DNA from: Kiritimatiellia bacterium
Lineage (GTDB): Bacteria; Verrucomicrobiota; Kiritimatiellia; RFP12; UBA1067
Reading direction: 5' to 3'
Assembly (NCBI GenBank): GCA_041673345.1
Contig: JBAYXX010000005.1
Coordinates: 5,929-69,928, forward strand
DNA length: 64,000 bases
The notes under the pieces were generated by a model. The model saw nothing but the letters and a program-made list of their open reading frames with translations, had not been told where the DNA came from and ran no database searches. The translations under genes were made by a program, and so were the position numbers. Shown one piece after another: positions 16,937-33,739 of this stretch. Every line of letters starts with the position of its first letter. Positions within the stretch are counted from its first letter, which is position 1.

Positions 16937-16959
16937 AAACCGCACCAACGGTGCGGTTT
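16937..16959 (-). terminator. weak hairpin overlapping the stop codon of the GspK-like gene
   Basis: The minus strand reads TAAACCGCACC-GTTG-GGTGCGGTTT. The stem is 10 bp but only three T follow it. Confidence 0.25.
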
Positions 16960-19900
16960 ACTGCGTGAGTTTGCGCCACTCGGCAATGGTCCAGTTGCCG
17001 GAGTAGGCATCGCGGATCACAGTGACTGCGGCGCGCTGTTCAGCGAGAACCGTGGGGTTCTCAGATGCCTCTGTGCCTGGTGCCAGGGTCTGGGCGGCCA
17101 GAATGATAACAAATACATTCTGGCGGAAGGAGACCTTGTCGATGATCCCGCGTAGCACATCCTCGATGTAGTTGTGCATGTGGGTGTGGTTTTTTACATT
17201 GCTGTCATCTTGAATATTGTACATTTTGTTAGTTGCGAGTGCTGGCAGCATATCGGCAAAGCAACGCCAGCCAGTGTTGTACTGATCCTTGGTGAGTGCT
17301 TCGGCCCAAAGTTCGGGCCAGCTGTTATTGCTGGAAAGTTTTCCGTATGTGCCGGAAGCAAATGACCAAGCGTTTGTCCATCCAACCATCACATCGCTGA
17401 AAAGGATATCCAGAGTTGGTTTCAAGGTAGTGTTAGCCTGCACAAGGCCGCGGACCGGCTTATTGGGTTTGATTGTGAAAAAGTCCAGCAGGGAAGCGCC
17501 AGAGATCGTTTCAAAGCTGATGGTATCGGCGGGTTCATACTCAGGTGCAAGTTTTTCTTCACTGTATTCAGCTACCGGATTTATAGTAGAACCGTTTCCA
17601 CTTATACCATTTAAACTTTCGTTTTTTTTCAATTTCCTGAACTCGGTATAAATATGCCCGAGGTCTCCGATGGTTTGCAAAGGGGTATTGAAATGAATGA
17701 ACGGCAGCTCTTTTACGCCGGTGAGAATGTGAATATCCGGGTTGGTGTTTTCTGCGTCCCAATTTGTGTGGAACTCAAGCCAGCGATCTTCGTATCCATT
17801 GTCACGCGGATCAGCAACGTACATATTTGCGGGAGCGAGCCAACCCTTGACTGTGTCATGCAAAGGGTTCTTGTCTTTTTCGTGCATCACCGCTTCGTTA
17901 ACAATGCGGTCGGTAAAGGGGCGCGCGTTTGCGTCTGGAGCGAGCTCTGTTATAATGTCCGCACCAATTATTGTGGTTACTGGTCGAATCCAGATGGTGT
18001 TGGTTACGCTGTCCTCTCGTATGTAGCCAAGCGCATAGCAGTTTGTGACGATTTCGCGCTCCTCCGATTCAGGCGGGTAGCCCGGGGGGATTTGTTCGGT
18101 TATCTCCATAAAGGATATTGTTTGCTTAGGATAAACAGTCCAAAAGTATCCATTAACGTTATCAGGATCTGTCATTGCTGTCGTTTTTAAATCGAAGAAG
18201 GGCGAGTCTGGATCCAGCCAGTGTTTATCTTTTTCGGTCATGTTCCCCAGAGAGGGTTCGATGATTTGGGGTATGAGAGTGTTCTGTATTCCCGGGGAAT
18301 TACTAATGTAGTTGAATAACTCATTCCATTTGTTGAGTTTTTTGATGTCTTCAGTGGTCAGAAGCATGAAGTCATGGATAGCGCTGATGCTGTTTGTTGG
18401 CAGCATCAGAAAAAGTTCGTTTAAAGCCAGCTTAAGTCTTTTCGGTATGTAAAGAGGGGTGACCTGCTCGACTGTGTATTGATTAAAGAGGTTTGTATAT
18501 GTCGTAAACTGTGGCGGCTCTATGTCCGGAGATAGGCGCACAGCCGTAATTAAGTTGGTTGAAATAACAGCTGTAACAAAGTTTGAGCTGATCATGTAAT
18601 TTTGACTAGGTGTGCTGCCATAAATTATCGCTCTGGCTATATTATTTGTGTAATCAAGCGCTACAAGATCTCCGTTCTCATCAATAATACCGCCGAGCAG
18701 CGAGTTTGTGATTGTTCCGGTTAGAGAGTCTTCCCAGTACATGACCATGTACTCCTGATCATCCGTATATTGGCTGTAAATAAATTCGTTTGTTACACCT
18801 GGGTAGGCAATGTTGAGCCAGTGGTTGGTTTGTGTGATGCCTGATGTTTCCAGGTAAAAGGTCTTGTATAGCGGGGAGTTTGTCATTACAACAGTAAACC
18901 ACTCCTCTCCCAGTTCTGTTGTTTCGCGCCAGAGAGGGCTATTTATCATTGCTGGAGTGAACCAGTTGTCGCCCCTGTTTGTGATTTTCTGCCAGAGTGG
19001 ATTTCCGTCAAGATATGCCCAGCCAACTTCGTTTGTGTACTCCCGCGCCCAGGTTTCAAATAGAACCTTCATTACGATATTTGTGCCAAAGAAGTTTTCC
19101 AGCTCTCTACTTGAAAGGGGACGATTGGTTGTGGTGATAACATCCGCTTCATTGGTATAGATGCCGACATAACAGGCTGGGTCAACAAGCCTTGGATCTG
19201 ATCTTGAGTCGTTATAGTAAGAGTCAGGGGCAACTTCGTCTCTAAAAGGCGAGTTGGGGGCAAATGGATACCAGAGCTCAACTGCGACGGCGTAGTGGTT
19301 GCTGAGGTTCGGGTCAACATTGTAATAGTTGTAGTTTTTTAATTTATCTTGTGGTCCAATGTAATCGGTATTCCCTGCGCCATCATCAATATTAAAGAGT
19401 GATATCTTGCTGATCAGGGGCACATCTTCCACGGCAAAGTTGGCGCGCGTCGGCATCTCATATTCGATTAAGTTTGAAACATCTGGAATTCTGTCGTAGT
19501 CGATGAAGTTAGCGATCGACCAGGCGAGACGGTGGCCTTTGTCAAAGACGAGGTTTTCGCTCCCCATATCTTTGTTGCGGCATATCTCTGAGATGCACCA
19601 GGCTGGCAGCAACCACTCAGCTATAAATTGACCGTTATTTTTCCAGAGATCGATCGATGCTGGGGTGTAGTTTCTCAGGACATTGGTGATGCTGTTGATG
19701 TTGAATTTATTGTACGTGTATGTGTTTGTGCTCAACAGCTGATAGAGTACAGATAGCTTTTCGGAGTCGGGGAGGCTCAGGTTATTAAGGTCAACCCGCA
19801 GTTGCGACCCAAAGGCATCGCGGCCTAAAACATCCTCGGTACCTGGCCCGCTCATGGGAGCATAGTGTCGGAAGGTGTTGGGGTTGGGGTCGTAGGAGGT

Positions 19901-20695
19901 GTGGAAGAGGGGGGAGTCTGCTAATTCCACGTTGTTAGAAATCAATAAGTTGTTGATCTTTGTTGCTTTGGCATCCTCTAATGTGTTGGCGATCTCCTGT
20001 TGAGAGAAGTAAATACGTTGTTGCTTCGTATCTGTTGGCATTTTGGGTGCGACGTTTGCATCGATAGTGCCAGAACAGTCGAATATTGCGTAGGCTATAC
20101 GGGTGGGTTTGTTCTGTAACCTCTGCCTCAGGTCATCGTTAGTATGTATGTTTCCCGACAAAATCCAGCTACTGAGTAAAGCGTCGCTGCCTGTGGGAAG
20201 ATCGTTTGTTAAGGCCGGGGGTATCAGCTTTAGAGCTGACTCTGTCAATAGATTGACGCGATGTGTAAAAGTGCTAGTGAAATCTGCAATTGCCGGCGAG
20301 ACAAAAATGTGTTTGTACTGATAAGGAATACTCGGGTCAAATCCTAATTTCTCCAGACGTTCAGGGATGATCCATTGATTCACTGGGGCAAGGCGTTGGT
20401 ATATGTGGGGTTCATTAGGTCCGAAAGCCATCTCCTTGTTAAGATCAATATAGTTTGTGTATGTTAGTGAGTTCTCTATTTGTTGCATTGCAAGGGCAAG
20501 TGCGGTGTTGAGTGTGCTTTTAGCAGCTAACTGATCATGGCTTGCTGTTGAACTTTTCTTCTGCAGTCTAGCGGATAGCAGGAAAGTCATTACTAAAACT
20601 GAGATCACGGAGAGGATCCCCAGGGTGATCAATAGCGCAGAGCCCGACCTATAATCAGATCTGGAGCTTGAACAGCTATGTAGTGGCACTTGCAT
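16958..20695 (-). CDS. giant GspK-like minor pseudopilin (1245 aa)
   Basis: N-terminus RSGSALLITLGILSVISVLVMTFLL is a GspK-type anchor with no Glu+5. It is the last gene after H/I/J-like pseudopilins. C-terminus NVFVIILAAQTLAPG...AAVTVIRD is GspK-like. The body is about 4x canonical length. It has an internal duplication GDNWFTPAMINSPLW / GEEWFTVVMTNSPLY. Confidence 0.6.
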   Translation of the reverse strand: MQVPLHSCSSSRSDYRSGSALLITLGILSVISVLVMTFLLSARLQKKSSTASHDQLAAKSTLNTALALAMQQIENSLTYTNYIDLNKEMAFGPNEPHIYQRLAPVNQWIIPERLEKLGFDPSIPYQYKHIFVSPAIADFTSTFTHRVNLLTESALKLIPPALTNDLPTGSDALLSSWILSGNIHTNDDLRQRLQNKPTRIAYAIFDCSGTIDANVAPKMPTDTKQQRIYFSQQEIANTLEDAKATKINNLLISNNVELADSPLFHTSYDPNPNTFRHYAPMSGPGTEDVLGRDAFGSQLRVDLNNLSLPDSEKLSVLYQLLSTNTYTYNKFNINSITNVLRNYTPASIDLWKNNGQFIAEWLLPAWCISEICRNKDMGSENLVFDKGHRLAWSIANFIDYDRIPDVSNLIEYEMPTRANFAVEDVPLISKISLFNIDDGAGNTDYIGPQDKLKNYNYYNVDPNLSNHYAVAVELWYPFAPNSPFRDEVAPDSYYNDSRSDPRLVDPACYVGIYTNEADVITTTNRPLSSRELENFFGTNIVMKVLFETWAREYTNEVGWAYLDGNPLWQKITNRGDNWFTPAMINSPLWRETTELGEEWFTVVMTNSPLYKTFYLETSGITQTNHWLNIAYPGVTNEFIYSQYTDDQEYMVMYWEDSLTGTITNSLLGGIIDENGDLVALDYTNNIARAIIYGSTPSQNYMISSNFVTAVISTNLITAVRLSPDIEPPQFTTYTNLFNQYTVEQVTPLYIPKRLKLALNELFLMLPTNSISAIHDFMLLTTEDIKKLNKWNELFNYISNSPGIQNTLIPQIIEPSLGNMTEKDKHWLDPDSPFFDLKTTAMTDPDNVNGYFWTVYPKQTISFMEITEQIPPGYPPESEEREIVTNCYALGYIREDSVTNTIWIRPVTTIIGADIITELAPDANARPFTDRIVNEAVMHEKDKNPLHDTVKGWLAPANMYVADPRDNGYEDRWLEFHTNWDAENTNPDIHILTGVKELPFIHFNTPLQTIGDLGHIYTEFRKLKKNESLNGISGNGSTINPVAEYSEEKLAPEYEPADTISFETISGASLLDFFTIKPNKPVRGLVQANTTLKPTLDILFSDVMVGWTNAWSFASGTYGKLSSNNSWPELWAEALTKDQYNTGWRCFADMLPALATNKMYNIQDDSNVKNHTHMHNYIEDVLRGIIDKVSFRQNVFVIILAAQTLAPGTEASENPTVLAEQRAAVTVIRDAYSGNWTIAEWRKLTQ

Positions 20696-20767
20696 TATGT
20701 TGGTCGGTTTAAACTGTTATGTGTTTTTGGTTAATTCTGTGGCTATTCACGCGCTGCATCCTCTTCT

Positions 20768-21622
20768 TTACTTTAGCCTTGTTCCTGATCCCGTCTTGAA
20801 TTGTATCATACGTGAGCTCTCAAATCCTAGATTTCGTGTTAATGCTCTGAGTTTAGCATCGCTACCGGCGACGGTCATTGCATTTACAAACTTGGGCCAA
20901 TCTTGGTCATTGTAGAGCTTTATCGCAAAATAGAGCTGATCCGGCAATACAGAAGCGTGAACTGTATGTTCTGTGCTGAGTATTCGATAAATATCGGGCA
21001 CCTCAACTGCGATATCAACAATCTCTACCCTAGCGGCCAGTAATGAAAACTCCCCTAGAGCTACCGACGGCTCAGGTTTGTTAAAAGGATCTATCACAAA
21101 ATTTATCATATTGTCGTGAAGTTCTAGCTCCCCCAGAACGTCCTCCCTCCTGGCTTCGAGCAAATCGCCAATATGTTGGGGATCATCAATATCGGCGTAA
21201 TCCAGAGGCAGTGTCCGTCGGAACAAAGCGCCTTGATAGTAGGTGTAAAAAACCGCGTCAAGCGCTGGGGCGGGATCATGGGGCGCATTGATTGAGCTGT
21301 GCTTGACAAAGGCCAGAAGGAGATTCAACTGGTTGGCATCTATGCTGCTGGCTGCAAAAAATGTAGGTGGTGCATTTGTTGACGTGCTGGTGTCAAAGGG
21401 CACTCCATTATCCGTAACAGCATAACTAAGGTCTTGCTCCAAGAGGTCAAGCACAATTCGTGCGACTATTTTTTCGTCTTGGTTTGTGTGCTTAGGGCTC
21501 CATATTTCGGTTGTCTTGTTAAGTGCCATGGTCAGCGCACCTAGAATAACTATGAAAAATGTCACTGCGCTAACTAGTTCAACCATGGTTAGGCCGGAGT
21601 TTGGCGAAAACGATCTTTTCAT
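20768..21622 (-). CDS. prepilin-type N-terminal cleavage/methylation domain protein (GspJ-position minor pseudopilin)
   Basis: 284 aa with class III signal NSG|LTMVELVSAVTFFIVILGAL and Glu at +5. Overlaps the upstream gene by 4 nt. Confidence 0.7.
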   Translation of the reverse strand: MKRSFSPNSGLTMVELVSAVTFFIVILGALTMALNKTTEIWSPKHTNQDEKIVARIVLDLLEQDLSYAVTDNGVPFDTSTSTNAPPTFFAASSIDANQLNLLLAFVKHSSINAPHDPAPALDAVFYTYYQGALFRRTLPLDYADIDDPQHIGDLLEARREDVLGELELHDNMINFVIDPFNKPEPSVALGEFSLLAARVEIVDIAVEVPDIYRILSTEHTVHASVLPDQLYFAIKLYNDQDWPKFVNAMTVAGSDAKLRALTRNLGFESSRMIQFKTGSGTRLK

Positions 21623-22197
21623 TGCAACCCCCCATGCTGAATCAGGGTTGTTGTATAAATCCGTTCGTCGCTTGAGTATGTGTCACCATCCGGTAGAATG
21701 TGTAACCTCACATGAAACATGTTTGGCTGACTGAAAACTGAAGACGTTCTGTCTGTTGCCATTTGGAGGGCGTAATATGGGTGCCAATTATTTAAATAGA
21801 TTGAGTCGTTCTTCATTGCGCGGACGTAATAAAAATTTTTGTCGCTGTCATTGTCATTGTCTTTGACTAAAACTATAAATATGTTGTTAGGCGTACTCAT
21901 CCCTGCAACCGGCGGGAATTCAAGGCTATTGTTTTCGATTGCTGCAAACCATTGATTAGTCCAGTTAGCTGGTTGTTTGCTAAAGCGTTGGTTGTATATT
22001 TCTAAAGTCTCAAAGAGAGCTGATGCTAGGTTGTCACAGCGGGCGGTGTTGTCGGCCTCCCGGACTGAATCCTGCCCGCCGCGCCCCAGCCCCATGATCC
22101 CGAGGAAGGCCACTCCGATAACCAATAGCACCAGCGCAATTTCAATTAAGGTGAAACCGTTGTTTGTCATATTTGCGTTATTGCGTGAGCGTCTCAT
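21619..22197 (-). CDS. prepilin-type N-terminal domain protein (GspI-position minor pseudopilin)
   Basis: 192 aa with signal NNG|FTLIEIALVLLVIGVAFLG. An alternative start is Met10 (22170). Confidence 0.7.
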   Translation of the reverse strand: MRRSRNNANMTNNGFTLIEIALVLLVIGVAFLGIMGLGRGGQDSVREADNTARCDNLASALFETLEIYNQRFSKQPANWTNQWFAAIENNSLEFPPVAGMSTPNNIFIVLVKDNDNDSDKNFYYVRAMKNDSIYLNNWHPYYALQMATDRTSSVFSQPNMFHVRLHILPDGDTYSSDERIYTTTLIQHGGLQ

Positions 22198-22217
22198 TTT
22201 AGGATCTCGGTTTTTTG

Positions 22218-22847
22218 CTACTCTCCAACGATAGTTTCAACAGAGCCAGTTGTTAAGTTTATCCATAGATAGCGTCTTATAGGTTTACTGTCAAACAAAC
22301 GTTTTGTGTACAGCCCAATATAGTGACTTTGAGGTGAACTATCTTTTTCGTATAAAAGTGAGCCATCCGGACGGAATGCAAGGTGCGCTGCCTCGTGGTC
22401 AGGGAAGTACGGCTCAGTTTGTCCTTGAAGAGATGCTAGCGCACCAACGTAGATATGTTTTGGGAGCAGTTGGCGAGGAGCGGCTAAGGCTATCCCAAGT
22501 TGATTTATAGCTGTACCTTGATCATAGATCGGTACGTTTTGGGTTAAATCACTAATGAACACCTCTGTTGTGCTGGTTACATTAGAACAGATATATATTT
22601 GAAACTGCGGAGTGCTCATTCCATTAATGGGTGCATTGTTATAATCAAATAAAACGTATTGGCACTTGCTCTGGGCTAAAGCATGCGCTTGGTTTAATCC
22701 AGCTTTCATAATCCGAGCGGCCCCTGTGCAGGCGTGCATAGATGCCCATGAGTTGTAGCTTCCCAGTGCAACCATAAGTATAACACCAGTCACCGCCAAC
22801 ACGGCAAGCAATTCAAAGAGGGTGAAGGCGGAGCATCTATTTTTCAT
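22218..22847 (-). CDS. GspH/FimT-like minor pseudopilin
   Basis: ORF 22218..22889 trimmed to MKNRCSA|FTLFELLAVLAVTG (ATG at 22847, 11-nt overlap with the upstream gene). The segment after the helix, GSYNSWASMHACTGAARIMKAGLNQAHALA, resembles a GspH domain. Confidence 0.6.
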   Translation of the reverse strand: MKNRCSAFTLFELLAVLAVTGVILMVALGSYNSWASMHACTGAARIMKAGLNQAHALAQSKCQYVLFDYNNAPINGMSTPQFQIYICSNVTSTTEVFISDLTQNVPIYDQGTAINQLGIALAAPRQLLPKHIYVGALASLQGQTEPYFPDHEAAHLAFRPDGSLLYEKDSSPQSHYIGLYTKRLFDSKPIRRYLWINLTTGSVETIVGE

Positions 22848-23601
22848 GGTATTGCACCCCTGCTGAATAGATGTATTTTCTGCTCTCATTCGCCTCTGGT
22901 CCGCGCGAGAATGCGAACGCTGTTGTGTTGCTGACGCTCATGTAGAAGCTGGGAGCACCATCAAATTTTATTTCATGAGTAAACGTCGAAGCTGGATTAA
23001 GTCCCATGAAAACGATAAATTGATTACCCCAAGGGTCTTTGTAGCCGACAGAGTCAGAATTAGTGCGATTGTCAAGTCCAAGGAATTCGATTTGTTTTGG
23101 GTTAAAAGGGTTGGGCTGGTAGAGCGGACCAATCTTGGTCTCTGGATCAATTGTGTTTAAAGCGCGATATAGATAGTTGCCTGTAATGTATTTTGGCTCC
23201 GTGTTGGTCACAGTTACACTGAAACTGTCATTGCCGTAGCGGGAGATTATCACGGGTGTTATTATCTCGCCAGACATTAGAATGAAGGTGCTGTCCAACT
23301 GAAGTTGTGGGTCATCTGTCGTGTAGCCGCTGGCTTTAATAAGCTGCCCGGGCCAGAAACCATATACTGTTTTATATTTGATGACCGCCTGTGTCAGCAG
23401 CGTTGCCTGTATACTCGCTTTACGGCGTTCAGCTGCTTTTCTGACTGATTTCACGGTTGGTAACGATATCGCCAGTAGAACCGACATAACTCCGATCACG
23501 ATCACAAGCTCAATAATAGTAAAGCCGTTCCACGGCTTTACCAACAACGATTTCAGCGCTGAGGTTTTAGAGTTATTTGTGCTATGTGTCGGCTTTTTCA
23601 T
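22837..23601 (-). CDS. prepilin-type N-terminal domain pseudopilin
   Basis: 254 aa with a long basic leader, then WNG|FTIIELVIVIGVMSVLLAISLP with Glu+5. Confidence 0.7.
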   Translation of the reverse strand: MKKPTHSTNNSKTSALKSLLVKPWNGFTIIELVIVIGVMSVLLAISLPTVKSVRKAAERRKASIQATLLTQAVIKYKTVYGFWPGQLIKASGYTTDDPQLQLDSTFILMSGEIITPVIISRYGNDSFSVTVTNTEPKYITGNYLYRALNTIDPETKIGPLYQPNPFNPKQIEFLGLDNRTNSDSVGYKDPWGNQFIVFMGLNPASTFTHEIKFDGAPSFYMSVSNTTAFAFSRGPEANESRKYIYSAGVQYHEK

Positions 23602-23649
23602 AAAGAAATTATAGGATTCTCACATTTAAAACTTTTTGGCTTGACTGCC

Positions 23650-24312: not shown

Positions 24313-24442
24313 TTTTAGTTTTGTTGTGGCGAGCCTCAGTGCGGCTCGCTGTTTGGTCTTCGCTGAGTGTGTAACCCCTTATTGGGCGCAAAGAAAAATT
24401 GATTGCTCTTTCCTAAAAGTTGTCTGTCGAGCTATATCTAAT

Positions 24443-24489: not shown

Positions 24490-24506
24490 GTTTATCGCTA
24501 CACATC

Positions 24507-27057: not shown

Positions 27058-27090
27058 AGTTTGGTTTATAGCTTGTAGTTTGTCTATATC

Positions 27091-27126
27091 TCGGGGTCGG
27101 GGTCGCGGTCGGAATCGGTATCGAAT
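27091..27126. repeat. hexamer tandem repeat (TCGNNN x6) upstream of gspE
   Basis: TCGGGG TCGGGG TCGCGG TCGGAA TCGGTA TCGAAT. Related arrays lie at 16006-16033 and 44301-44374. Confidence 0.8.
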
Positions 27127-27171
27127 AGTCAAGGAACGCGATTTACACCTCCGATGCAGCTGGCCTTTAAG

Positions 27172-27984
27172 TTACTTCTTATTGGGACCCTTTTGTTTGG
27201 CGGCAGCCTCTGCCGCGCGCTTAGCTTTGGCGGCATCTCTTTGGGCGGGAGTCATTTTAGCCTTGTTAGCGCCCGGCTGGTTGGCGCCCTTTTTTTTCAG
27301 GTCAGCTGGCGGAGGTGCTGCCGCCTCTTCCGGCGCGAGGGTGACCTTCTCTCCAAGCTTCAGCTGGCGGGTTGAGCCGTCGCCCAGGCGTAGCGTGGCG
27401 CTCTGCAGGCTAGCGTTCACAATGTTTACACCATGCACGTCGTTGCCCTTATCATAGAAAACCGTGGTTTTGTTGGCTGAGTCATAAAACATAGCAGCCG
27501 CAGTGCCGTCTGGACGCTTGATGAAACCCATGTAGGTCAGCACAGGGGTGATCATTGGCCTGCCGTCGGGGCCAAGGTTCTGGCCAGGGACATTCGCCTT
27601 TTTACGTAGGTGGGCAAAGGGATCCGTTTTCTTGGCATCTGGACTGGAGGTCATGCCTGCTGCCTCTTCTTGAGCCTTTTTAAGAGCCGCGATAAAGGCG
27701 GCGCGCTCAGCGGCATTGGTAAAAATCGCCTCAATAGTTGGGCGGAAAGGGTCCACCGGTATGATCAGAGAGGTGGATGCCAGCTGATTGGAGACAAAAT
27801 CAAGCAGTGTGATCTCCCAGGCTGGGCTTAATTCGGGAGTTTTTTTCTCGCCGACCTGAATCGGAGTGGGTGGTGTGCTGATTTTAAATCCGCAATAGAG
27901 CGTGATCGCAATGCAGATCACCACCATCCAGAGGCAGAAAGCCTTGGCGTTCAGGTGCATGATGCCTTTCCATAGAGTATTCAT
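27172..27984 (-). CDS. PilP/GspC-like periplasmic assembly protein with a Lys/Ala-rich C-terminal tail
   Basis: 270 aa with an N-terminal TM (AFCLWMVVICIAITLYCGF). A beta-rich segment, LTYMGFIKRPDGTAAAMFYDSANKTTVFYDKGNDVHGVNIV...LRLGDGSTRQLKLGEKV, resembles the PilP/GspC HR domain. The tail is KKKGANQPGANKAKMTPAQRDAAKAKRAAEAAAKQKGPNKK. Assignment rests on position and pattern only. Confidence 0.4.
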   Translation of the reverse strand: MNTLWKGIMHLNAKAFCLWMVVICIAITLYCGFKISTPPTPIQVGEKKTPELSPAWEITLLDFVSNQLASTSLIIPVDPFRPTIEAIFTNAAERAAFIAALKKAQEEAAGMTSSPDAKKTDPFAHLRKKANVPGQNLGPDGRPMITPVLTYMGFIKRPDGTAAAMFYDSANKTTVFYDKGNDVHGVNIVNASLQSATLRLGDGSTRQLKLGEKVTLAPEEAAAPPPADLKKKGANQPGANKAKMTPAQRDAAKAKRAAEAAAKQKGPNKK

Positions 27985-27992
27985 AGTTTTTA

Positions 27993-28024
27993 GGGGTTAG
28001 GGGTTAGGGGATAGGGGATAGGGG
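27993..28024 (+). repeat. heptamer microsatellite forming a canonical G-quadruplex motif
   Basis: GGGGTTAGGGGTTAGGGGATAGGGGATAGGGG gives five G4 runs separated by 3-nt loops. It fills the 47-nt spacer between the PilO-like stop (28032) and the PilP-like start (27984). Confidence 0.9.
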
Positions 28025-28031
28025 TTGGAGG

Positions 28032-28790
28032 TTAATCAAAAAGCAGTGCTGAGAGGATGGCTTTCATGCGCAGTTTGGCATCAAAGGTTGGGCCTGACTC
28101 AACACGGAGATTACGAAAAGCAAAGACCTGTCCCTCCTCGAACACCGATTGAAAACCGGTGTAGAGCCGTTCAAAATCAATATCGCACTCAATACGCACC
28201 GGGTATTCAGTGAAAACATACCGCCCATTTTTGTCCCTATGTTCAATCGGCGCGAGTGGATAGATTTCAACCAACCGAGTGATTTGACGGTCCAAGGTTA
28301 GGTCAGCGAGTTTTTCCACTGCTTTGAGCTGCAGCATACGCACGCGAACAGCTGCGCCGCTCTGCAGATCTTCATCCAATCCCAGCTCTTTGGGAACCAG
28401 CGGGATGTTAAGCTCCGCTGATTTCTCTTTGAGGCGCTGTCGAATTTCATAGAGTTGAACCTTGTAGTCAATACGGTTCACCCCAATATCCAGCAGAACC
28501 GACTGATCCTCAAACGAGCTTAGGCGGGCGTTGATGCGAGCCCACTCGTTGGAGAGTTGCTGCAGATTCTGCAGCTCATGCTCCACAACGGCCTGCATAC
28601 TCTCAATTGAGTGGCTCGCGAATTTGCTGCTTGTGAGTTGTTCGCGCACACGTTTATTATCGGCCTCCATGTTGCGCTGCGGGATGAAAACGAATCTGAT
28701 GGTGCAGAAAAGCCCGATCGCGATGAACAGCATAATAAAGATCACCTGCGCACGTTCAGTTTTAAGAATACTCCAATCTGGTTTGATCAT
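28032..28790 (-). CDS. PilO/GspM-like inner-membrane assembly protein
   Basis: 252 aa with a single N-terminal TM (VIFIMLFIAIGLFCTIRFVFI), a coiled-coil region and a C-terminal alpha/beta domain. It overlaps the upstream PilM/N-like gene by 4 nt. Confidence 0.45.
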   Translation of the reverse strand: MIKPDWSILKTERAQVIFIMLFIAIGLFCTIRFVFIPQRNMEADNKRVREQLTSSKFASHSIESMQAVVEHELQNLQQLSNEWARINARLSSFEDQSVLLDIGVNRIDYKVQLYEIRQRLKEKSAELNIPLVPKELGLDEDLQSGAAVRVRMLQLKAVEKLADLTLDRQITRLVEIYPLAPIEHRDKNGRYVFTEYPVRIECDIDFERLYTGFQSVFEEGQVFAFRNLRVESGPTFDAKLRMKAILSALLFD

Positions 28791-30529
28791 GGGCGGTTTA
28801 CCTCGATTTCAATTACAAAACGCCGGAAATCCGGTATCTGCGCTGCTTCCAGCTCTGGAATGCCGACCGGTGCTAAAACCTGGTCATCGCTGCGCAGGTC
28901 AACCCGGGCGATTTCAGGGGAGCTTTTAAGGCGGCTGATCATGTCGCGTACTGTTTTAAGGCTTGGGTTGGGGGTGTATCCCTCAACAATAAAAATTCGA
29001 TCCATTTGTTCTACGATATCTTTTTTTGCCAGTGGCATCTCTTTTTTGCCGGTTGGGGCTGGGGCGGCGGCTACTGGGCGCGTTGCCCTGAAAAGTGAGA
29101 AGGGGTTGCGTGCCGCAGCCGCTACTGGCAGATCTTTGTCAGGCTTATCCTGCTCTTCAGGGTTGTAAATCTTCTCATCACAGAACAGGGTGACCCAGTC
29201 ATCCGGATCAATCGAGGCGCATACTAACGAAAAGATGTCGCGTGCGATCGGCCCGTTCATCAAAAGCCGCCCCAAGGGCAGGGAGTTGGTCAGCACCTGC
29301 GACTCCATCAGCTTGAGTTGCGTGATATGCTGGTCAATCTGCTCCCGGGTACGCAGACGCGACCGTTCAGCAGCGAGCAGGGCACCGTCACGCTGCAATA
29401 AAAAGACCCCTGTGGCGCTGTAAACTCCCATGCCTATGAAAATGAAGATTGCGGCAGCACCCCACCAAGGTTTCTTGGCGCGGAACACGACCTCGTCTTT
29501 CAAGTCCTCCGGCAGAAGTGAAAGCTTTACAATCGCGGCATCTAGCGAGCAGAGTGCCAGACCATAGGCAACATCAAACTGCCCCACATATTTCTGGTAA
29601 GAGGGGGGGATGTTGGGTAGCTCTTTTGCCTCCATAATCTGCATCGGGAGCTTTGTGAGCAGATGCTCCTTAAATCCCTTCAGCCGCGTACCCCCGCCTG
29701 AGATCACCAGCTGGTGAATCTGAAACTGTCGTTCAGAGTACTGACTTCGGAAAACACCCAGGCAGGCGTTGAACTGCGAGAGCCAGCGGTCAGCAGCAGC
29801 GCGTAAGGGAATGCAGCAGGCATCGTCATCCCGTAGTCCGCAGTCCGACTGCTTGCGCACTTCGGCCTGTGTTGCAGGCAGCCCTGTCTCGTGCGAGATC
29901 GCGTCAGTAAAGAGCTTGCCGCCAACACCGATAGTGCGCGCAAAGAGTAACCCGGTTTTATTGCCAATTGCCACATCGCTCTGATGGTGTCCGATATTGA
30001 CGTAACACCACGGCTCCTCATGCTCCCCGGCAAAGGACTCCAGGGCGTTGAAGAGCGCGACCGGGGCGGAGATCAGCTCTGCTGCCCGTAGGTTCATCTG
30101 GGTGGTTTCGTGCAACGCTTTTTCAATTGCGGCAGGGCGCGCCATTGACATTATATAGCGCCGCATACCAGGTTCAAATTCAAGCTCGAAGTCAGCTACG
30201 TCATAGGCCATGAGGTCGCCGGCCATCTCATTGAACTGAGCGATATCCATATCAGCAACTTGTCGTGCAGTGCGTGGGTCGTTGTGGGGGATTTTACCAC
30301 CCTGAAACACAGTTTGGGTTCCGTCCAGAGCGACATTGCAGAAGGCTTTGGCAAGGCTGTGTTTCCCGACCCACTGACGAATCATGTCGGTCGGATTTTC
30401 CTCCTCTGTGGGCAATGCGAATGACTCAACCCGCGCGACATACGGCTTGTTGGCGCGCATCTGCAGCCAGAGCGCACGTAGCGTGTGCGCGCCAGTGTCA
30501 ATCGCTATAATTTGTTTCTGTTTGGCCAT
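28787..30529 (-). CDS. PilM-PilN fusion / GspL-like assembly protein
   Basis: 580 aa. The N-terminal actin-like ATPase fold starts IIAIDTGAHTLRAL and includes VISGGGTRLKG. A TM (WWGAAAIFIFIGMGVYSATGVFLL) and a periplasmic PilN-like C-terminal domain follow. Confidence 0.65.
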   Translation of the reverse strand: MAKQKQIIAIDTGAHTLRALWLQMRANKPYVARVESFALPTEEENPTDMIRQWVGKHSLAKAFCNVALDGTQTVFQGGKIPHNDPRTARQVADMDIAQFNEMAGDLMAYDVADFELEFEPGMRRYIMSMARPAAIEKALHETTQMNLRAAELISAPVALFNALESFAGEHEEPWCYVNIGHHQSDVAIGNKTGLLFARTIGVGGKLFTDAISHETGLPATQAEVRKQSDCGLRDDDACCIPLRAAADRWLSQFNACLGVFRSQYSERQFQIHQLVISGGGTRLKGFKEHLLTKLPMQIMEAKELPNIPPSYQKYVGQFDVAYGLALCSLDAAIVKLSLLPEDLKDEVVFRAKKPWWGAAAIFIFIGMGVYSATGVFLLQRDGALLAAERSRLRTREQIDQHITQLKLMESQVLTNSLPLGRLLMNGPIARDIFSLVCASIDPDDWVTLFCDEKIYNPEEQDKPDKDLPVAAAARNPFSLFRATRPVAAAPAPTGKKEMPLAKKDIVEQMDRIFIVEGYTPNPSLKTVRDMISRLKSSPEIARVDLRSDDQVLAPVGIPELEAAQIPDFRRFVIEIEVNRP

Positions 30530-30561
30530 AAAAAATCGGTTTCGCTAGTCAGTGGTTCAAG

Positions 30562-30603
30562 AGTCAGGAGTCAGGAGTCAGAAGTCAGAATTCAGGAGTC
30601 ACT
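30562..30603. repeat. heptamer tandem repeat (AGTCAGG-like x6) at the secretin / pilM-like junction
   Basis: AGTCAGG AGTCAGG AGTCAGA AGTCAGA ATTCAGG AGTCACT. It overlaps the secretin stop codon at 30599-30601. Confidence 0.85.
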
Positions 30604-32809
30604 CCGCCACAGGTGCGGCGGGCACGGCGGCGGGGGGTACAGCTGGCGCGGCGACCTCGACTGGTGCTTCAGCAGGCACGGCTGCGGGGACTTCGGCTGG
30701 CGCGGCGACGGGCGCGTCAGCGAGAATGGGCTCAATCGCTGGCGCCGCCTGCGCCGGTGTTTCCGCTTGTGCCGGTGTTTCCGCCTGCGCCAGAGACTCT
30801 TCCTTGACCACCAAATCTTCGAGTGGCATTGGCAGAGCACCCTTGAGCACATCAGGTGTGGCGGCATCAGGGGAGACGGCCAGACCGTAGCGGTCGCGCT
30901 CGTTCAGCGGGATCAGCTCTTCGCCCATATCACTGATCAGTGTGGCGGTGACAAAAATCAGCATGTTGTTGGCGGTTTCGTTGTCTTTATCCACCTTGAA
31001 AAGTTGTCCAATAAAGGGTAGTTTGTTCAACCAAGGTGTGCCGGAGGAGGCTTCGGTTTTCAGGGTGTCAACCAATCCGCCCAGTACCACGGTTTCACCG
31101 CTGCGCACGACCGCCTCGGTTTCAATATACTGGCGGCCGATGGTGGGAATTTCGATGGCAGGCTCATCGCCGATATCCTTGCCGCTGTCCAGACTGCTGA
31201 GCCGGTAGCGTTTCCACTCCTCGATGCTGCTGATCTCTGGACGTAACACAAGGTTGATGGTGGAAAGGTCGGCGCCGACACTCGGGGTGACGGTCAGAGA
31301 GTAACCCACCTCCACCACGGTGGGCCGGTTGTAGTTGTAAGTGACATTATCGCGTGATTCGCCGCTGTTGTAACCGCCGCCGCTGGTCATAATATTGGTG
31401 TCAACCTCCTCAAAGTAGGAGACGTCACGCCCAAAACGAAATGTCGCTTCGCGGTTATTCAAGGTTGTCACCCGCGGCACAACCACTGTGCGGCTGTTGC
31501 CGGTCTCCTCTAACGCGTGCAGAGTGGCCTGTAAGCCGGTTTCACCGAGCAGGGTTTGGTACATTCCACCAAAGCCCGCTTCGCCCGCTTTGGCGACATA
31601 GGCGTTTTTGGTGAACTGATTGGGGCTCATATTCTTGATAGAGTCACCGATTTTAAGGATCTCCTCCGGATTGGTTGATAGTGCCTGCATACGCTTGAGC
31701 TGAGCGACAGTATCCCCGCCGCCAGCAGCTCCCCCGAAATCATAGGGGCGCTGCAGCAGCCATTCAATCCCAAGCTCACGCAGGTCATTGACTTTAGTTG
31801 TGATAAACCGAGCTTCAATCAAAATTTGCAGCGGGCGTATGTCCAATGCCGCGATCAGCTCTTCCACCTGGGCCAGGTTTTCGCGGGTGTTTTTGACGAT
31901 CAGGGAGTGGGCTTTGTCATTGAAAACAAAGTCAGCACCCTCAGGCTGCATCACAAAGCGTTCGATCAGCTCCAGCAGGCCGATCGAGCCCTCCTTGGCC
32001 TCGCTGGCTTTGTCGTTGTTGCTTTGGCTGCTGCCCTGCCCGCGCTGTTCCGGCCCTTTGAAGGGAGATTTTCCCGCTGATGTTTTACCCAGTTCGGAGC
32101 CGATCAAACCTTTACGTAGCTTGTAGACCCGGGTCATCAAGGGCACTCCGGTTGTCACCTCCTCTTTGGGGGTAACCCAGATCAGGGAGGTGCCAACCGA
32201 GAACTCAACGTTCAGATTGCGCCCCACATAGTCCAGGATTTCAATCAGGGGGGTATCTTCTGCATGGATCGTCAGCGCCTTTTCGGAGATTTCGCTGTCG
32301 GCAATAATGTTGATGTTTTGTGATTGGCCGATCTGCGCGATGATGGCGTTGATGTCGGCGTTTACAAGGTGCATGCTTACCGGACTGGTTAGTGCTGTCT
32401 GCATCTTAGTGCGCTCGGAGCGCAGGGGGGTGTTCTCTCCGACAACGTTTTTCTGCAGGCGGTAACTCTCGATCGGAAGGCCAAATCTTTTGGCGTCAGC
32501 CGTGTCGAGTTCGGCTGCTGATTCGGCGCGCATCAGCACCTCTTTGCGCCGATCTTCGGCCAGTTGCGCCGCGATGCGCTGCTTGAGCGCAGCCAACCCC
32601 ACGGCGTCTGGACGCTTGCGCGAGATGTCGATCGTGGCGGTGATTGCCTCCTGCATGCGCCCCTGCTCGTAGAGTGTGTCAGCTGCGAGCACCGCCGCAT
32701 CCGGGCGCGGCGGCGCCTCGGGCTTTGGTTCAGGTGCTTTGGTGGTGGTGCAACCTGCCAGCCAGACAAAGGAGCATAGGGTGAGGATATGCTTGGAAGT
32801 AATGTTCAT
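30599..32809 (-). CDS. gspD: secretin (GspD/PilQ family) lipoprotein with a Pro/Ala-rich C-terminal extension
   Basis: 736 aa with lipobox LAGC. Secretin core motifs are VRSGETVVLGGLV...GTPWLNKLPFIGQLFK...NMLIFVTATLI. The tail contains ETPAQAETPAQA (an 18-nt in-frame duplication) followed by a PA-rich stretch. Confidence 0.85.
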   Translation of the reverse strand: MNITSKHILTLCSFVWLAGCTTTKAPEPKPEAPPRPDAAVLAADTLYEQGRMQEAITATIDISRKRPDAVGLAALKQRIAAQLAEDRRKEVLMRAESAAELDTADAKRFGLPIESYRLQKNVVGENTPLRSERTKMQTALTSPVSMHLVNADINAIIAQIGQSQNINIIADSEISEKALTIHAEDTPLIEILDYVGRNLNVEFSVGTSLIWVTPKEEVTTGVPLMTRVYKLRKGLIGSELGKTSAGKSPFKGPEQRGQGSSQSNNDKASEAKEGSIGLLELIERFVMQPEGADFVFNDKAHSLIVKNTRENLAQVEELIAALDIRPLQILIEARFITTKVNDLRELGIEWLLQRPYDFGGAAGGGDTVAQLKRMQALSTNPEEILKIGDSIKNMSPNQFTKNAYVAKAGEAGFGGMYQTLLGETGLQATLHALEETGNSRTVVVPRVTTLNNREATFRFGRDVSYFEEVDTNIMTSGGGYNSGESRDNVTYNYNRPTVVEVGYSLTVTPSVGADLSTINLVLRPEISSIEEWKRYRLSSLDSGKDIGDEPAIEIPTIGRQYIETEAVVRSGETVVLGGLVDTLKTEASSGTPWLNKLPFIGQLFKVDKDNETANNMLIFVTATLISDMGEELIPLNERDRYGLAVSPDAATPDVLKGALPMPLEDLVVKEESLAQAETPAQAETPAQAAPAIEPILADAPVAAPAEVPAAVPAEAPVEVAAPAVPPAAVPAAPVAE

Positions 32810-32875
32810 GTGAGTTTCCTGTTAGTTTATTTTTACAACCACTCAGTGGTTACAAAGAGGAGGTTAAAAGTGTTG

Positions 32876-33739
32876 TCAATTGCGTTTGTCGCCCGGGTGG
32901 ATGGTTCCCTCCCACCAGAGCGGGCCTACAAAAACATTGCCGGCATAGGCGACGTTAAGGGTGATGAAATTTCTGGTGGGTTTTGCGCCTTTGGCGGCAT
33001 ATCCCATAATTTTCATATCTTTAAAATGATGGTAGCAGCGGACAATGGGAATACGGGAGGCACTGTAGGGCATTTTCTCGCCTTTGATCACGTGGGCGGT
33101 GTCACCATAACGCATTTGGGCATGCTTATATTGTGACATAGTTTTTATGTTCGAGGTAACATCTTTCGGGAATTGTGAATTGCTTACCCAGTCCGAAGGC
33201 GCAGTAGCTGCTGAGAATTCATATAAATAGCTACAGGCCGCAATAGCTCTGGAGTTTTCTGGTCTACTGGTGTTTTTTTCGTTGTCCCAGAAGGAAGAGT
33301 CGTTGTCAATTTCGTTCTTACCAACACCATCACTACTTGTCAATGCATCTGGGCGGGGCCTGTCAAAGCCTTTGTTGATATCAGCTGTGCAGACATACAT
33401 TGCACGGTCATCCACATACTCAGGGTAGAGAGTTGAAAGCCAGTCCGGGGTTTCGTTGTCGTGCTCGGCGCGGTAGATGGTCAGAGCGACACCGAACTGC
33501 CGCAGGTTGGATTTGCAGTTGGTTTGGCGGGCACTCTTATAGCTGGACTGCACTGACACCACCAGTGCCGACATCAGAATACTGAGGATCACAATCACCA
33601 CCAAAAGCTCGACCAAGGTGAAGCCCTTGGTTGCGCTAAAGCGTGTTTGGCATGAACTTTGCAGATAATAACAATGCCTGGCACCAGCTGTGAGACGGTG
33701 CGGATTTTTTCGGTTTTTGGTTTGGTCACCCATAGACAT
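32876..33739 (-). CDS. prepilin-type N-terminal cleavage/methylation domain protein (PVC-style pilin-like, long leader)
   Basis: 287 aa with signal TKG|FTLVELLVVIVILSILMSALV and Glu+5, after a leader of about 37 aa. It is separated from the secretin gene by 66 nt. Confidence 0.7.
   Translation of the reverse strand: MSMGDQTKNRKNPHRLTAGARHCYYLQSSCQTRFSATKGFTLVELLVVIVILSILMSALVVSVQSSYKSARQTNCKSNLRQFGVALTIYRAEHDNETPDWLSTLYPEYVDDRAMYVCTADINKGFDRPRPDALTSSDGVGKNEIDNDSSFWDNEKNTSRPENSRAIAACSYLYEFSAATAPSDWVSNSQFPKDVTSNIKTMSQYKHAQMRYGDTAHVIKGEKMPYSASRIPIVRCYHHFKDMKIMGYAAKGAKPTRNFITLNVAYAGNVFVGPLWWEGTIHPGDKRN

What the first reader, a model, noticed from the sequence alone, without database searches (positions are those of the whole stretch)
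16958..33739. 17-kb hybrid T2SS / type IV filament operon with non-canonical composition
Thirteen co-directional genes run in this order. First come a pilin-like protein, a lipoprotein secretin, a PilM-PilN fusion, a PilO-like protein and a PilP-like protein. A GspE ATPase follows. Then come a GspG-like pseudopilin and two more class-III-signal pseudopilins of 220 and 254 aa. H-, I- and J-position minor pseudopilins follow, and the operon ends with a 1245-aa GspK-like protein. The alignment-complex genes (secretin + PilMNOP) look like T4aP, while the G-H-I-J-K pseudopilin block looks like T2SS. The operon lacks the polytopic platform protein (GspF/PilC) and the prepilin peptidase (GspO/PilD), which every characterised T2SS or T4P needs. 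Three large-bodied pseudopilins and a giant tip protein suggest a thick or decorated fibre rather than a short periplasmic piston. Its intercistronic spacers are also filled with microsatellites and REPs, reported separately.
Basis: partly seen in the sequence, partly recalled or inferred. Interest (0 to 1): 0.75.

Follow-up and report, generated by a model that had tools for sequence, protein, structure and literature searches.

The report
Kiritimatiellia pilus/secretion operon with giant tip
This is a real 13-gene operon, conserved across the class Kiritimatiellia, for a type IV filament machine (the family that includes type IV pili and type II secretion); its two "missing" genes are absent from the operon in every relative examined and are most likely encoded elsewhere in the genome, which could not be checked, so it is an undescribed variant of a known machine rather than a new kind.

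Summary
The 13 co-directional genes are real. They lie on the minus strand, 33739→16958, in a Kiritimatiellia MAG. The same gene order recurs wherever the fetched DNA is long enough in the related loci, which include 47 loci from species-representative genomes. The parts are: a DUF1559 pilin; a lipoprotein secretin; a true PilM fold fused through one membrane helix to a PilN-like domain; a weakly PilO/GspM-like protein; an unassigned bitopic protein; a PilB/GspE ATPase; a full-length GspG homologue; two larger G-like pilins; H-, I- and J-position minor pilins; and a 1245-aa protein with a GspK-type N-terminus lacking Glu5.

No GspF/PilC or prepilin peptidase occurs in the operon, the 64-kb window or any related locus. 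The gap is therefore not an assembly artefact. Seven subunits carry canonical prepilin cleavage sites, so the operon cannot be self-sufficient.

"Hybrid" is partly right. The scaffold, ATPase and secretin score best against T4aP proteins, and the major subunit is T2SS-type.

New findings: the giant protein belongs to a large unannotated family; the pilin block has been exchanged between lineages; and a PA14–GDSL protein is a conserved divergent neighbour.

Verdict: a new variant of a known kind, of moderate interest.

The parts
32876..33739 (-). Gene 1: 287-aa prepilin-type protein. It has a class III signal (KG|FTLVE) and a DUF1559 body, a type typical of the PVC superphylum (Planctomycetota-Verrucomicrobiota-Chlamydiota and relatives).
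   Evidence: Pfam N_methyl 6.3e-8 and SBP_bac_10 2.1e-5. hhalign to GspG N-terminus, probability 97.2. Present upstream of the secretin in all loci with enough flank.
30599..32809 (-). Gene 2: 736-aa outer-membrane secretin. It is a lipoprotein (LAGC lipobox), has a single N-domain, and ends in an Ala/Pro-rich tail.
   Evidence: Pfam Secretin 4.6e-33; one Secretin_N below cut-off. NCBIfam PilQ 152 bits, GspD 149, Amuc_1098_fam 132, all below cut-off. Best PDB hit PilQ 6ve2, 74 bits, against GspD about 60.
28787..30529 (-). Gene 3: 580-aa scaffold. A cytoplasmic PilM-type actin-like domain (1-330) is joined by a TM helix (about 341-374) and a long coiled coil to a beta-alpha-beta-beta periplasmic domain. 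This is a PilM-PilN fusion with GspL-like architecture.
   Evidence: Pfam PilM_2. NCBIfam best hit Amuc_1101_fam, 3.7e-17. PDB profile hits to PilM 5eou and 3jc8, about 1e-13, and no GspL. AF2 pLDDT 76.5. Foldseek PilM 5e-20, TM-score (normalised by target length) 0.62-0.75. 140 homologues at 38-92% identity.
28032..28790 (-). Gene 4: 252-aa bitopic protein (TM, coiled coil, alpha/beta domain). It is probably the PilO/GspM equivalent.
   Evidence: No hit for the window protein itself. 9 of 24 orthologues give weak Pfam PilO and 4 of 24 give T2SSM. Position and topology.
27172..27984 (-). Gene 5: 270-aa bitopic protein with a conserved beta-rich core and a Lys/Ala-rich tail. It sits at the PilP/GspC position, but homology is not shown.
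   Evidence: No Pfam, NCBIfam or PDB hit, alone or as a family. Conserved in position in all loci. The PilP/GspC-HR assignment is inferred from topology and position only.
25321..27132 (-). Gene 6: PilB/GspE-class extension ATPase with an N-terminal MshEN domain and a tetracysteine motif. The true start is probably Met26 at 27057, giving about 578 aa.
   Evidence: Pfam T2SSE 1e-122 and MshEN. NCBIfam GspE 537 and PilB 530 bits, both below cut-off. PDB PilB 433 bits full length, EpsE 358 bits over the core. 70-96% identical in relatives.
24507..25028 (-). Gene 7: 173-aa GspG-type major (pseudo)pilin candidate (RG|VTLIE; DPWGTPY motif).
   Evidence: Pfam T2SSG 30.2 bits, above cut-off. hhalign probability 98.5 over 129 columns to E. 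coli GspG.
23650..24312 (-). Gene 8: 220-aa prepilin-type protein with a G-like N-terminus and a large unassigned body.
   Evidence: Pfam N_methyl 5e-8. hhalign to GspG, N-terminal 63 columns only.
22837..23601 (-). Gene 9: 254-aa prepilin-type protein with a G-like N-terminus and a DPWGNQF motif.
   Evidence: Pfam N_methyl. hhalign to GspG N-terminus, probability 95.1.
22218..22889 (-). Gene 10: 223-aa minor pilin at the H position (SA|FTLFE).
   Evidence: Pfam N_methyl. NCBIfam weak Verru_Chthon D and GspH. hhalign best to GspH, probability 90.9 over 70 columns.
21619..22197 (-). Gene 11: 192-aa minor pilin at the I position.
   Evidence: Pfam N_methyl. NCBIfam weak PilV 2.8e-5. hhalign ambiguous.
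20768..21622 (-). Gene 12: 284-aa minor pilin at the J position (SG|LTMVE).
   Evidence: No Pfam hit. hhalign best to GspJ, probability 93.1 over 66 columns.
16958..20695 (-). Gene 13: 1245-aa K-position protein. It has a pseudopilin-type N-terminal helix without Glu5 (SG|SALLIT). A core is shared with a large family of 650-900-aa proteins, and residues about 490-990 form a lineage-specific insertion of roughly 500 aa. It is the presumed filament cap.
   Evidence: NCBIfam GspK and Verru_Chthon_A N-terminus only, E 3e-4. 52 full-length homologues. AF2 pLDDT 65. No Foldseek PDB hit below E 0.19. Motif resemblance to GspK. 987 representative relatives. Shared and unshared segments. The same terminal position in L054 and L057.
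34493..36685 (+). Conserved divergent neighbour: a 730-aa exported protein with a PA14 domain and a C-terminal GDSL/SGNH-like domain. It is a candidate cargo or accessory factor.
   Evidence: Orthologue in the same divergent position in 19 related loci. PA14 in 13 of 18 orthologues and Lipase_GDSL_2 in 9 of 18. The link to the machine is inferred from synteny only.
33999..34117 (.). A perfect 37-bp x 3.2 tandem repeat in the divergent promoter region between gene 1 and the PA14-GDSL gene.
   Evidence: TRF score 238, 100% matches. Its role is unknown.

Best explanation
The operon encodes most of a type IV filament (TFF) machine of a subtype specific to Kiritimatiellia.

Shown:
- It encodes a lipoprotein secretin.
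- It encodes a PilM fold covalently fused to a PilN-like periplasmic domain.
- It encodes two bitopic partner proteins.
- It encodes a PilB/GspE-class ATPase.
- It encodes a GspG-type major subunit, three further large pilins, and a four-gene H-I-J-K-ordered block whose last member is 1245 aa.
- The 13-gene order is conserved across the class.
- The pilin half has been exchanged between lineages.

Inferred mechanism:
- A prepilin peptidase and a GspF/PilC platform encoded elsewhere process and load the subunits.
- The ATPase, docked on the PilM domain, drives polymerisation.
- The H-I-J-K-like complex primes the fibre and stays at its tip.
- The giant K-like cap and the fibre pass through the secretin and are exposed on the cell surface. 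The machine therefore behaves as a pilus rather than a short periplasmic piston.
- It probably binds or captures polysaccharide substrate.
- The PilT encoded 25 kb away may retract it.
For: - Real and conserved: the same 13-gene order occurs in every related locus long enough to show it, including 47 loci from species-representative genomes plus metagenome contigs.
- Component identities.
- Dependence on genes in trans: seven subunits carry canonical class III cleavage sites, but no peptidase or platform gene lies in the window or in any related locus. Akkermansia gives a precedent for a dispersed PilC (PMC12619756).
- The scaffold, ATPase and secretin score best against T4aP proteins.
- A bona fide PilT lies in the same window: TIGR01420 452.6 bits against a cut-off of 319.
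- Cassette exchange: against the closest genome (L005) the machinery genes are 88-96% identical but genes 10-13 only 37-45%. Against the more distant L006 the machinery is 61-85% identical, yet genes 8-13 are 53-70%.
- The pilin genes have 42-47% G+C against 55-58% for the secretin, scaffold, gene 5 and the ATPase (gene 4 is 49%). Incongruence of this kind is what is seen for surface-exposed pilin cassettes (established knowledge for P. aeruginosa pilin groups).
- The tip protein carries a lineage-specific insertion of about 500 aa.
Against: - The best-supported major subunit is a full-length GspG homologue. The E-G-...-H-I-J-K order is the gsp order, which points to type II secretion.
- There is no retraction ATPase in the operon, and no link between the distant PilT and this machine is shown.
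- Kiritimatiella glycovorans is reported to carry 'a type II secretion system' and to export many sulfatases (PMC5148204). If this operon is the only secretin system in these genomes, it must do that job.
- The platform and peptidase genes were not located, because no whole genome could be searched.
- The giant protein's model has only moderate confidence and no structural match, so its adhesin or cap role is inferred from position only.
Confidence: 0.5

Rival explanations
1. It is the Kiritimatiellia type II secretion system. A short periplasmic GspG-type pseudopilus, capped by the H-I-J-K-like complex, pushes folded exoenzymes (sulfatases, glycoside hydrolases, perhaps the adjacent PA14-GDSL protein) through the secretin. 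The PilM-PilN fusion plays the role of GspL, the 252-aa protein that of GspM, and the 270-aa protein that of GspC.
For: - Full-length GspG homology and the gsp-like order E-G-...-H-I-J-K.
- The fused cytoplasmic-TM-periplasmic architecture is that of GspL.
- There is no PilT in the operon.
- A conserved divergent gene encodes an exported PA14-GDSL protein that could be cargo.
- K. glycovorans is annotated with a T2SS, exports many sulfatases, and lacks TonB-dependent uptake systems (PMC5148204).
Against: - The scaffold is PilM-like, not GspL-like, in both sequence and fold.
- The secretin has one N-domain, not the N0-N3 set.
- No NCBIfam Gsp equivalog cut-off is reached.
- A cap of about 140 kDa and three pilins of 220-287 aa are hard to fit into a periplasmic piston (inference).
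- The pilin cassette has been exchanged between lineages and is AT-rich, which is unusual for periplasmic pseudopilins.
Confidence: 0.33
2. It is a glycan-capture and import pilus, like the Akkermansia MUL2 (Amuc_1098-1102) type IV pilus-like system. The fibre binds polymer outside the cell, and retraction draws it through the secretin into the periplasm. This would stand in for the TonB-dependent uptake that these bacteria lack. It is a sub-case of the best explanation with a specific function.
For: - The scaffold's best NCBIfam match is the Amuc_1101 family and the secretin also matches Amuc_1098_fam.
- MUL2 is described as a mucin utilization locus that likely facilitates attachment, similar to a secretion system (PMC13174399).
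- K. glycovorans lacks TonB-dependent receptors (PMC5148204).
- PilT is present in the window.
- The conserved neighbour carries a PA14 domain, which is carbohydrate-binding (established knowledge).
Against: - The NCBIfam scores are far below the family cut-offs: 62 against 650, and 132 against 750.
- The MUL2 locus as described has no ATPase or G-K pilin block.
- The 252-aa family shows no PDB match at all.
- There is no experimental evidence for import through a secretin in this class.
Confidence: 0.12
3. The machine truly works without a GspF/PilC-type platform and possibly without a PilD-type peptidase. The fused PilM-PilN scaffold and its partners would couple the ATPase directly to pilin extraction.
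For: - No platform or peptidase gene lies next to any of the four T2SSE-family ATPases in this 64-kb window.
- None lies in any of about 55 related loci.
- ATPase-to-pilin adjacency without F recurs in a separate module, L057.
Against: - Absence was shown only locally. No whole genome could be searched.
- Seven subunits keep the canonical peptidase cleavage site and Glu5, which implies a PilD-type enzyme exists.
- Every characterised type IV filament system needs a platform (established knowledge).
- Akkermansia encodes PilC far from its PilQ/PilM cluster (PMC12619756).
Confidence: 0.04

Closest known systems
Type II secretion system (Gsp/Eps/Xcp)
   Same: It has a secretin, a GspE-class ATPase, a full-length GspG homologue, a contiguous G...H-I-J-K-ordered pseudopilin block, and a last member lacking Glu5. 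Its scaffold has GspL-like cytoplasmic-TM-periplasmic architecture.
   Different: - There is no GspF or GspO in the operon.
- The scaffold is PilM-type in sequence and fold.
- The secretin has one N-domain and is a lipoprotein.
- No GspC or GspM is detectable by sequence.
- Three extra large pilins are present.
- The K-position protein is about four times the size of GspK (327 aa in E. coli K-12).
- All NCBIfam Gsp scores are below cut-off.
Type IVa pilus machine (PilMNOPQ, PilB/T/C, minor pilins FimU-PilVWX plus PilY1)
   Same: - The PilM fold is present.
- PilB and PilQ are the best PDB matches.
- There are four priming minor pilins plus a very large tip-associated protein, a role comparable to PilY1.
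- PilT is present in the window.
   Different: - PilM and PilN are fused.
- The major subunit is GspG-type, not PilA-type.
- No AMIN domains were reported on the secretin.
- The large tip protein is itself a pilin-like subunit rather than a separate PilY1.
- PilC and PilD were not found locally.
Akkermansia muciniphila MUL2 / Amuc_1098-1102 type IV pilus-like locus
   Same: It comes from the PVC superphylum. It has a secretin plus a roughly 600-aa PilM-like protein with a long C-terminal extension, and Amuc_1101_fam is the scaffold's best NCBIfam match. PilC is encoded far away (PMC12619756; PMC13174399).
   Different: - Scores are far below the equivalog cut-offs.
- The gene order differs: here the secretin comes first.
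- The Akkermansia locus as described has no ATPase, GspG-like pilin or H-I-J-K block.
Verru_Chthon cassette (NCBIfam TIGR02596/02599/02600)
   Same: Several prepilin-type proteins and one very large protein (the A-protein profile is 1296 positions), and that large protein's N-terminus matches this giant's N-terminus. That these form one cassette, and that it is found in Verrucomicrobia and Chthoniobacter, is taken from the family names and my recollection of the TIGRFAMs description.
   Different: Only the first 60 or so residues match (18.7 bits against a cut-off of 332). The bodies are unrelated at the level HMMER can detect.

Membership tests
Type II secretion system | GspF polytopic platform protein belonging to the system | tested here: not met
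   No Pfam T2SSF hit among any ORF of 100 aa or more in the window. phmmer with E. coli GspF found nothing in the window, even at E<=10 with --max, or in L001-L057. Presence elsewhere in the genome is not testable with these tools.
Type II secretion system | Prepilin peptidase GspO/PilD | tested here: not met
   Same searches with E. coli GspO gave no hit. Cleavage motifs in seven subunits imply that one exists elsewhere.
Type II secretion system | GspG major pseudopilin | tested here: met
   Pfam T2SSG 30.2 bits against a cut-off of 21. hhalign probability 98.5 over 129 columns to E. coli GspG. It is below the TIGR01710 equivalog cut-off, 41.5 against 88.85.
Type II secretion system | GspH-I-J-K minor pseudopilins | tested here: inconclusive
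   H: probability 90.9. J: probability 93.1, N-terminal 66-70 columns only. I: ambiguous. K: N-terminal 70 residues only, E 3e-4. hhalign of the family against E. coli GspK was not significant.
Type II secretion system | GspD secretin with N0-N3 periplasmic domains | tested here: not met
   One Secretin_N hit below cut-off. TIGR02517 148.6 bits against a cut-off of 351.
Type II secretion system | GspL, GspM and GspC assembly platform | tested here: inconclusive
   The architecture of gene 3 is GspL-like, but there is no GspL match by sequence or fold. T2SSM appears weakly in 4 of 24 gene-4 orthologues. There is no GspC signal.
Type II secretion system | Secretes folded periplasmic proteins | not testable with these tools
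   Needs a secretome comparison of an operon mutant.
Type IVa pilus | PilM actin-like protein binding PilN | tested here: met
   Pfam PilM_2 31.5 bits against a cut-off of 27. PDB PilM about 1e-13. Foldseek PilM 5e-20. Here it is covalently fused to the PilN-like part.
Type IVa pilus | PilO, PilP, and PilQ with AMIN domains | tested here: inconclusive
   PilO is weak. PilP shows no signal. PilQ TIGR02515 scores 152 bits against a cut-off of 284, and no AMIN hit was reported.
Type IVa pilus | PilA-type major pilin | tested here: not met
   All candidate major subunits match GspG-type profiles best.
Type IVa pilus | PilT retraction ATPase | tested here: inconclusive
   A PilT lies at 52339-53424 and scores above cut-off, 452.6 against 319. 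It is 25 kb away, however, and its partnership with this machine is unknown.
Akkermansia Amuc_1098/Amuc_1101 families | NCBIfam equivalog cut-offs | tested here: not met
   Amuc_1098_fam 132.3 bits against 750. Amuc_1101_fam 62.4 bits against 650.
Verru_Chthon cassette | TIGR02600 (protein A) and TIGR02596/02599 cut-offs | tested here: not met
   18.7 bits against 332.3 for the giant. 23.7 bits against 70 for gene 10. Only the N-terminal helices match.

The most novel reading that the evidence does not exclude
Kiritimatiellia assemble a type IV filament without any GspF/PilC-type platform protein. The covalently fused PilM-PilN scaffold and its two bitopic partners would couple the ATPase directly to pilin extraction. 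This would break the rule that every type IV filament machine needs a polytopic platform.
Probability: 0.04. Interest if true: 0.9.

Novelty: new variant of a known kind. Interest (0 to 1): 0.45.

Why it matters
Kiritimatiellia are specialist degraders of sulfated polysaccharides. Their first cultured member is reported to lack TonB-dependent uptake systems (PMC5148204). How they export enzymes or capture polymer is unknown, and this operon is a conserved candidate for that step.

The operon also documents three things not described in the papers searched:
- A PilM-PilN fusion that is shared with the Akkermansia Amuc_1101 family. It sits architecturally between the T4aP PilM/PilN pair and T2SS GspL.
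- A large, unannotated family of 650-1400-aa K-position cap proteins, with about 1000 clusters at 50% identity.
- Exchange of the whole pilin cassette between lineages.

If the fibre is surface-exposed and retractile, it would join the Akkermansia MUL2 locus as a second PVC type IV filament system tied to glycan use.

Tried and rejected
**Locating gspF/pilC and pilD in the genome.**
- The single genome-contig scan went on operon relatives.
- Exact-product look-ups of genes at the window edges found nothing on record, apart from one that returned only a short contig.
- A search with an E. coli GspF query was judged useless, because the top hits would all be enterobacterial. It was not run.

**Supplement of the K. 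glycovorans paper.** Not held.

**Literature.** Searches for Kiritimatiellia plus T2SS or T4P found nothing specific. 'Verru_Chthon' appears in no paper.

**Sequence anchors for genes 4 and 5.**
- PDB profile searches gave nothing.
- hhalign against E. coli GspM/GspC/HofN/HofO/HofP gave nothing.
- hhalign of gene 4 against the PilN-like part of gene 3 gave nothing.

**Giant protein.**
- The AF2 model has moderate confidence and no Foldseek PDB match.
- hhalign against E. coli GspK was not significant. Only motif-level resemblance was seen: KFNINS against CFNLNA, and IANFIDYDRIP against IADYIDVDDSP.

**ATPase classification as GspE or PilB.** The scores are too close to call. No phylogeny was built for lack of reference sequences.

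**Rejected readings.**
- Assembly artefact: the same gap occurs in the independent assemblies of the related loci.
- Decayed remnant: matching ORFs for the genes are found in the same order across the class.
- A conserved polytopic neighbour substituting for GspF: MgtC downstream is not syntenic in relatives.

Full report
**Observation**

Thirteen ORFs on the minus strand run from 33739 to 16958, with short spacers or small overlaps. The window comes from a Kiritimatiellia MAG. The 1245-aa product is 100% identical to NCBI 'WC340_01640 [Kiritimatiellia bacterium]'.

Pfam and NCBIfam confirm the following:
- a DUF1559 prepilin-type protein;
- a secretin (the LAGC lipobox is read from the sequence);
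- a PilM_2/FtsA-type protein;
- a T2SSE ATPase with an MshEN domain;
- a T2SSG protein;
- four further N_methyl proteins.

The 252-, 270-, 284- and (bar its first 86 residues) 1245-aa proteins have no family hit.

Seven subunits carry G/A|(F/V/L)T..E class III cleavage motifs. The giant carries SG|SALLIT, with no Glu5, as GspK does (sequence).

**Conservation**
- The giant has 52 homologues, most of them full length, at 26-59% identity. All named ones but one partial sequence are Kiritimatiellia.
- The 580-aa scaffold has 140 homologues; those listed are 38-92% identical.
- A scan of GTDB species representatives returned 47 loci. All are Kiritimatiellia-type MAGs, though some are mislabelled Lentisphaeraceae or Akkermansia.
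- phmmer with the 13 window proteins shows the order 1→13 wherever the fetched DNA is long enough (gene calls).

The operon is therefore a class-wide core feature. It is not a chance run of ORFs and not an assembly product.

**The missing genes**

No ORF in the 64 kb matches T2SSF or Peptidase_A24. phmmer with E. coli K-12 GspF and GspO finds nothing in three places:
- the window, even at E<=10 with filters off;
- L001-L051;
- L054-L057.

A related module in L057 also runs ATPase→G→…→K with no F. The absence is genuine and conserved.

It is still only local.

Two facts argue that the genes are supplied in trans:
- The canonical cleavage sites require a peptidase that is equally absent.
- In the sister phylum, Akkermansia PilC is Amuc_1584 while PilQ and PilM are Amuc_1098 and Amuc_1101 (PMC12619756).

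None of the four T2SSE-family ATPases in this window has a platform gene beside it.

**What the parts are**
- *Scaffold.* The family profile hits T4aP PilM structures at about 1e-13 and no GspL. The AF2 model (pLDDT 76.5) has a complete actin-like domain. Its best Foldseek matches are PilM from Pseudomonas, Myxococcus and Thermus (5e-20, TM-score 0.62-0.75). FtsA comes next, and there is no GspL in the top 50. After the actin-like domain come a TM helix, a 55-residue helix and a β…β-α-β-β domain. It is therefore a PilM-PilN fusion whose architecture, though not its sequence, is that of GspL. Its best NCBIfam match is the Akkermansia Amuc_1101 family, far below cut-off.
- *Gene 4.* PilO/GspM-like only weakly.
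- *Gene 5.* Unassigned.
- *ATPase.* Scores 537 bits against GspE and 530 against PilB in NCBIfam. In PDB it scores 433 bits against full-length PilB and 358 against the EpsE core. This is ambiguous.
- *Secretin.* Marginally PilQ-like, with a single N-domain.
- *Gene 7.* A full-length GspG homologue, hhalign probability 98.5.
- *Genes 8 and 9.* They share only the G-type N-terminus.
- *Genes 10 and 12.* They match GspH and GspJ best.
- *Gene 11.* Ambiguous.

**The giant protein**

AF2 gives pLDDT 65 and pTM 0.52. Foldseek finds nothing below E 0.19.

A profile of its first 560 residues finds 987 representative clusters at E<=1e-3. About 30 are 1000-1480-aa orthologues or fragments of them. Many of the weaker hits are 650-900-aa proteins. 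Ten of the weaker hits (eight of 720-892 aa, two of about 1360-1380 aa) were scanned. None has a Pfam domain, and eight of the ten show only a weak GspK/Verru_Chthon_A N-terminus.

These smaller relatives share several segments with the giant: residues 3-84, about 194-286, about 324-489, about 993-1017, and 1058-1242. Residues about 490-990 are a lineage-specific insertion.

In two contexts examined, the relative closes a G…K pilin block. The K-position assignment is therefore supported by position, by the Glu5-less N-terminus and by motif resemblance. It is not supported by a significant profile match.

**Evidence on function**

Per-gene identities are incongruent:

| Comparison | Genes 2-6 (machinery) | Pilin-block genes |
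|---|---|---|
| Window vs L005 (closest genome) | 88-96% | 37-45% (genes 10-13) |
| Window vs L006 (more distant) | 61-85% | 53-70% (genes 8-13) |

Genes 8-13 have 42-47% G+C. The secretin, scaffold, gene 5 and the ATPase have 55-58%, and gene 4 has 49%. The pilin cassette has therefore been exchanged between lineages. That is the pattern known for surface-exposed pilins.

Three further observations bear on function:
- L057 shows that the ATPase-pilin module can exist apart from the secretin-scaffold module.
- A PilB-PilT-PilB cluster lies at 50616-55133.
- A divergently transcribed 730-aa exported protein sits next to gene 1 in 19 related loci. It carries PA14 in 13 of 18 orthologues and a GDSL-like domain in 9 of 18.

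**Verdict**

I favour a surface-exposed, possibly retractile filament with a giant variable cap, confidence 0.5. A classical T2SS role is the main rival, at 0.33. It is supported by the GspG-type subunit, by the gsp-like gene order, and by the class's need to export enzymes (PMC5148204).

- The 'hybrid' reading is partly supported.
- The 'non-canonical composition' reading rests on a local absence only, and the operon's own cleavage sites show it cannot be self-sufficient.
- No paper found describes this operon.

It is a new variant of a known kind, and it is of moderate interest.

Noticed in passing
window 50616-55133 (-): A second cluster of three T2SSE-family ATPases lies between gatB and a thioredoxin-reductase gene. 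The proteins are 569 aa (PilB-like), 361 aa (PilT, above the NCBIfam cut-off) and 587 aa (GspE/PilB-like). No pilC or pilin gene is nearby. Together with the operon ATPase this makes four such ATPases in 64 kb, none next to a platform gene.
   Followed up: partly
window 34493-36685 (+): A 730-aa exported protein (PA14 plus a GDSL/SGNH-like C-terminus) is transcribed divergently from the operon. It keeps that position in 19 related loci. It may be cargo or an accessory factor of the machine.
   Followed up: yes
window 27990-28034 and 30557-30601; also 24275-24308 and 27091-27112: Heptamer microsatellites (TTAGGGG x6.4 and TCAGGAG x6.4) fill two intercistronic spacers, between genes 4/5 and 2/3. 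An ATTTTTG x4.9 run encodes the Lys-rich leader of gene 8. A TCGGGG x3.7 run lies just upstream of the likely true ATPase start. Length changes in these runs could alter translation of the downstream genes.
   Followed up: no
window 33999-34117: A perfect 37-bp x 3.2 tandem repeat with an internal inverted repeat lies in the divergent promoter region between gene 1 and the PA14-GDSL gene. It overlaps a probably spurious 94-aa ORF.
   Followed up: no
window 16958-24312: The pilin and tip half of the operon is AT-rich: 42-47% G+C against 52% for the window as a whole. Its similarity to relatives is incongruent with that of the machinery half, which indicates cassette exchange between lineages.
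   Followed up: yes
window 16958-20695 (giant protein): The dipeptide Thr-Asn occurs 24 times against about 9 expected. Many of the TN sites are invariant across 39 homologues. Their significance is unknown; they could be structural caps, metal or glycan contacts, or modification sites.
   Followed up: no
L054 6385-12481 and L055 3158-9173: A stand-alone G...K pilin cassette ending in an 826-aa relative of the giant sits among dozens of very small ORFs and a resolvase gene. This suggests that such cassettes can ride on a mobile element or prophage.
   Followed up: no
L057 2065-9697: An ATPase-G-...-K(720 aa) module is orthologous gene for gene to window genes 6-13. It lies next to a MatE gene and has no secretin-scaffold module. 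The 13-gene operon therefore looks like a composite of two separable modules.
   Followed up: partly
L002 2772-3149: In one relative, a 125-aa '23S_rRNA_IVP' four-helix-bundle gene is inserted between the gene 5 and ATPase orthologues.
   Followed up: no
window 12253-14433 and 59159-63013 (-): Two large Laminin_G_3 (concanavalin-like) proteins are present. One is 726 aa with a weak neutral-ceramidase N-terminal match. The other is 1284 aa. Both look like exported glycan-binding or glycan-degrading proteins.
   Followed up: no
L008, L009, L034, L035, L040 and others: Several public MAGs labelled 'Lentisphaeraceae', 'Akkermansia muciniphila' or 'Akkermansia sp.' carry this Kiritimatiellia-type operon. 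Their taxonomic labels are probably wrong.
   Followed up: no
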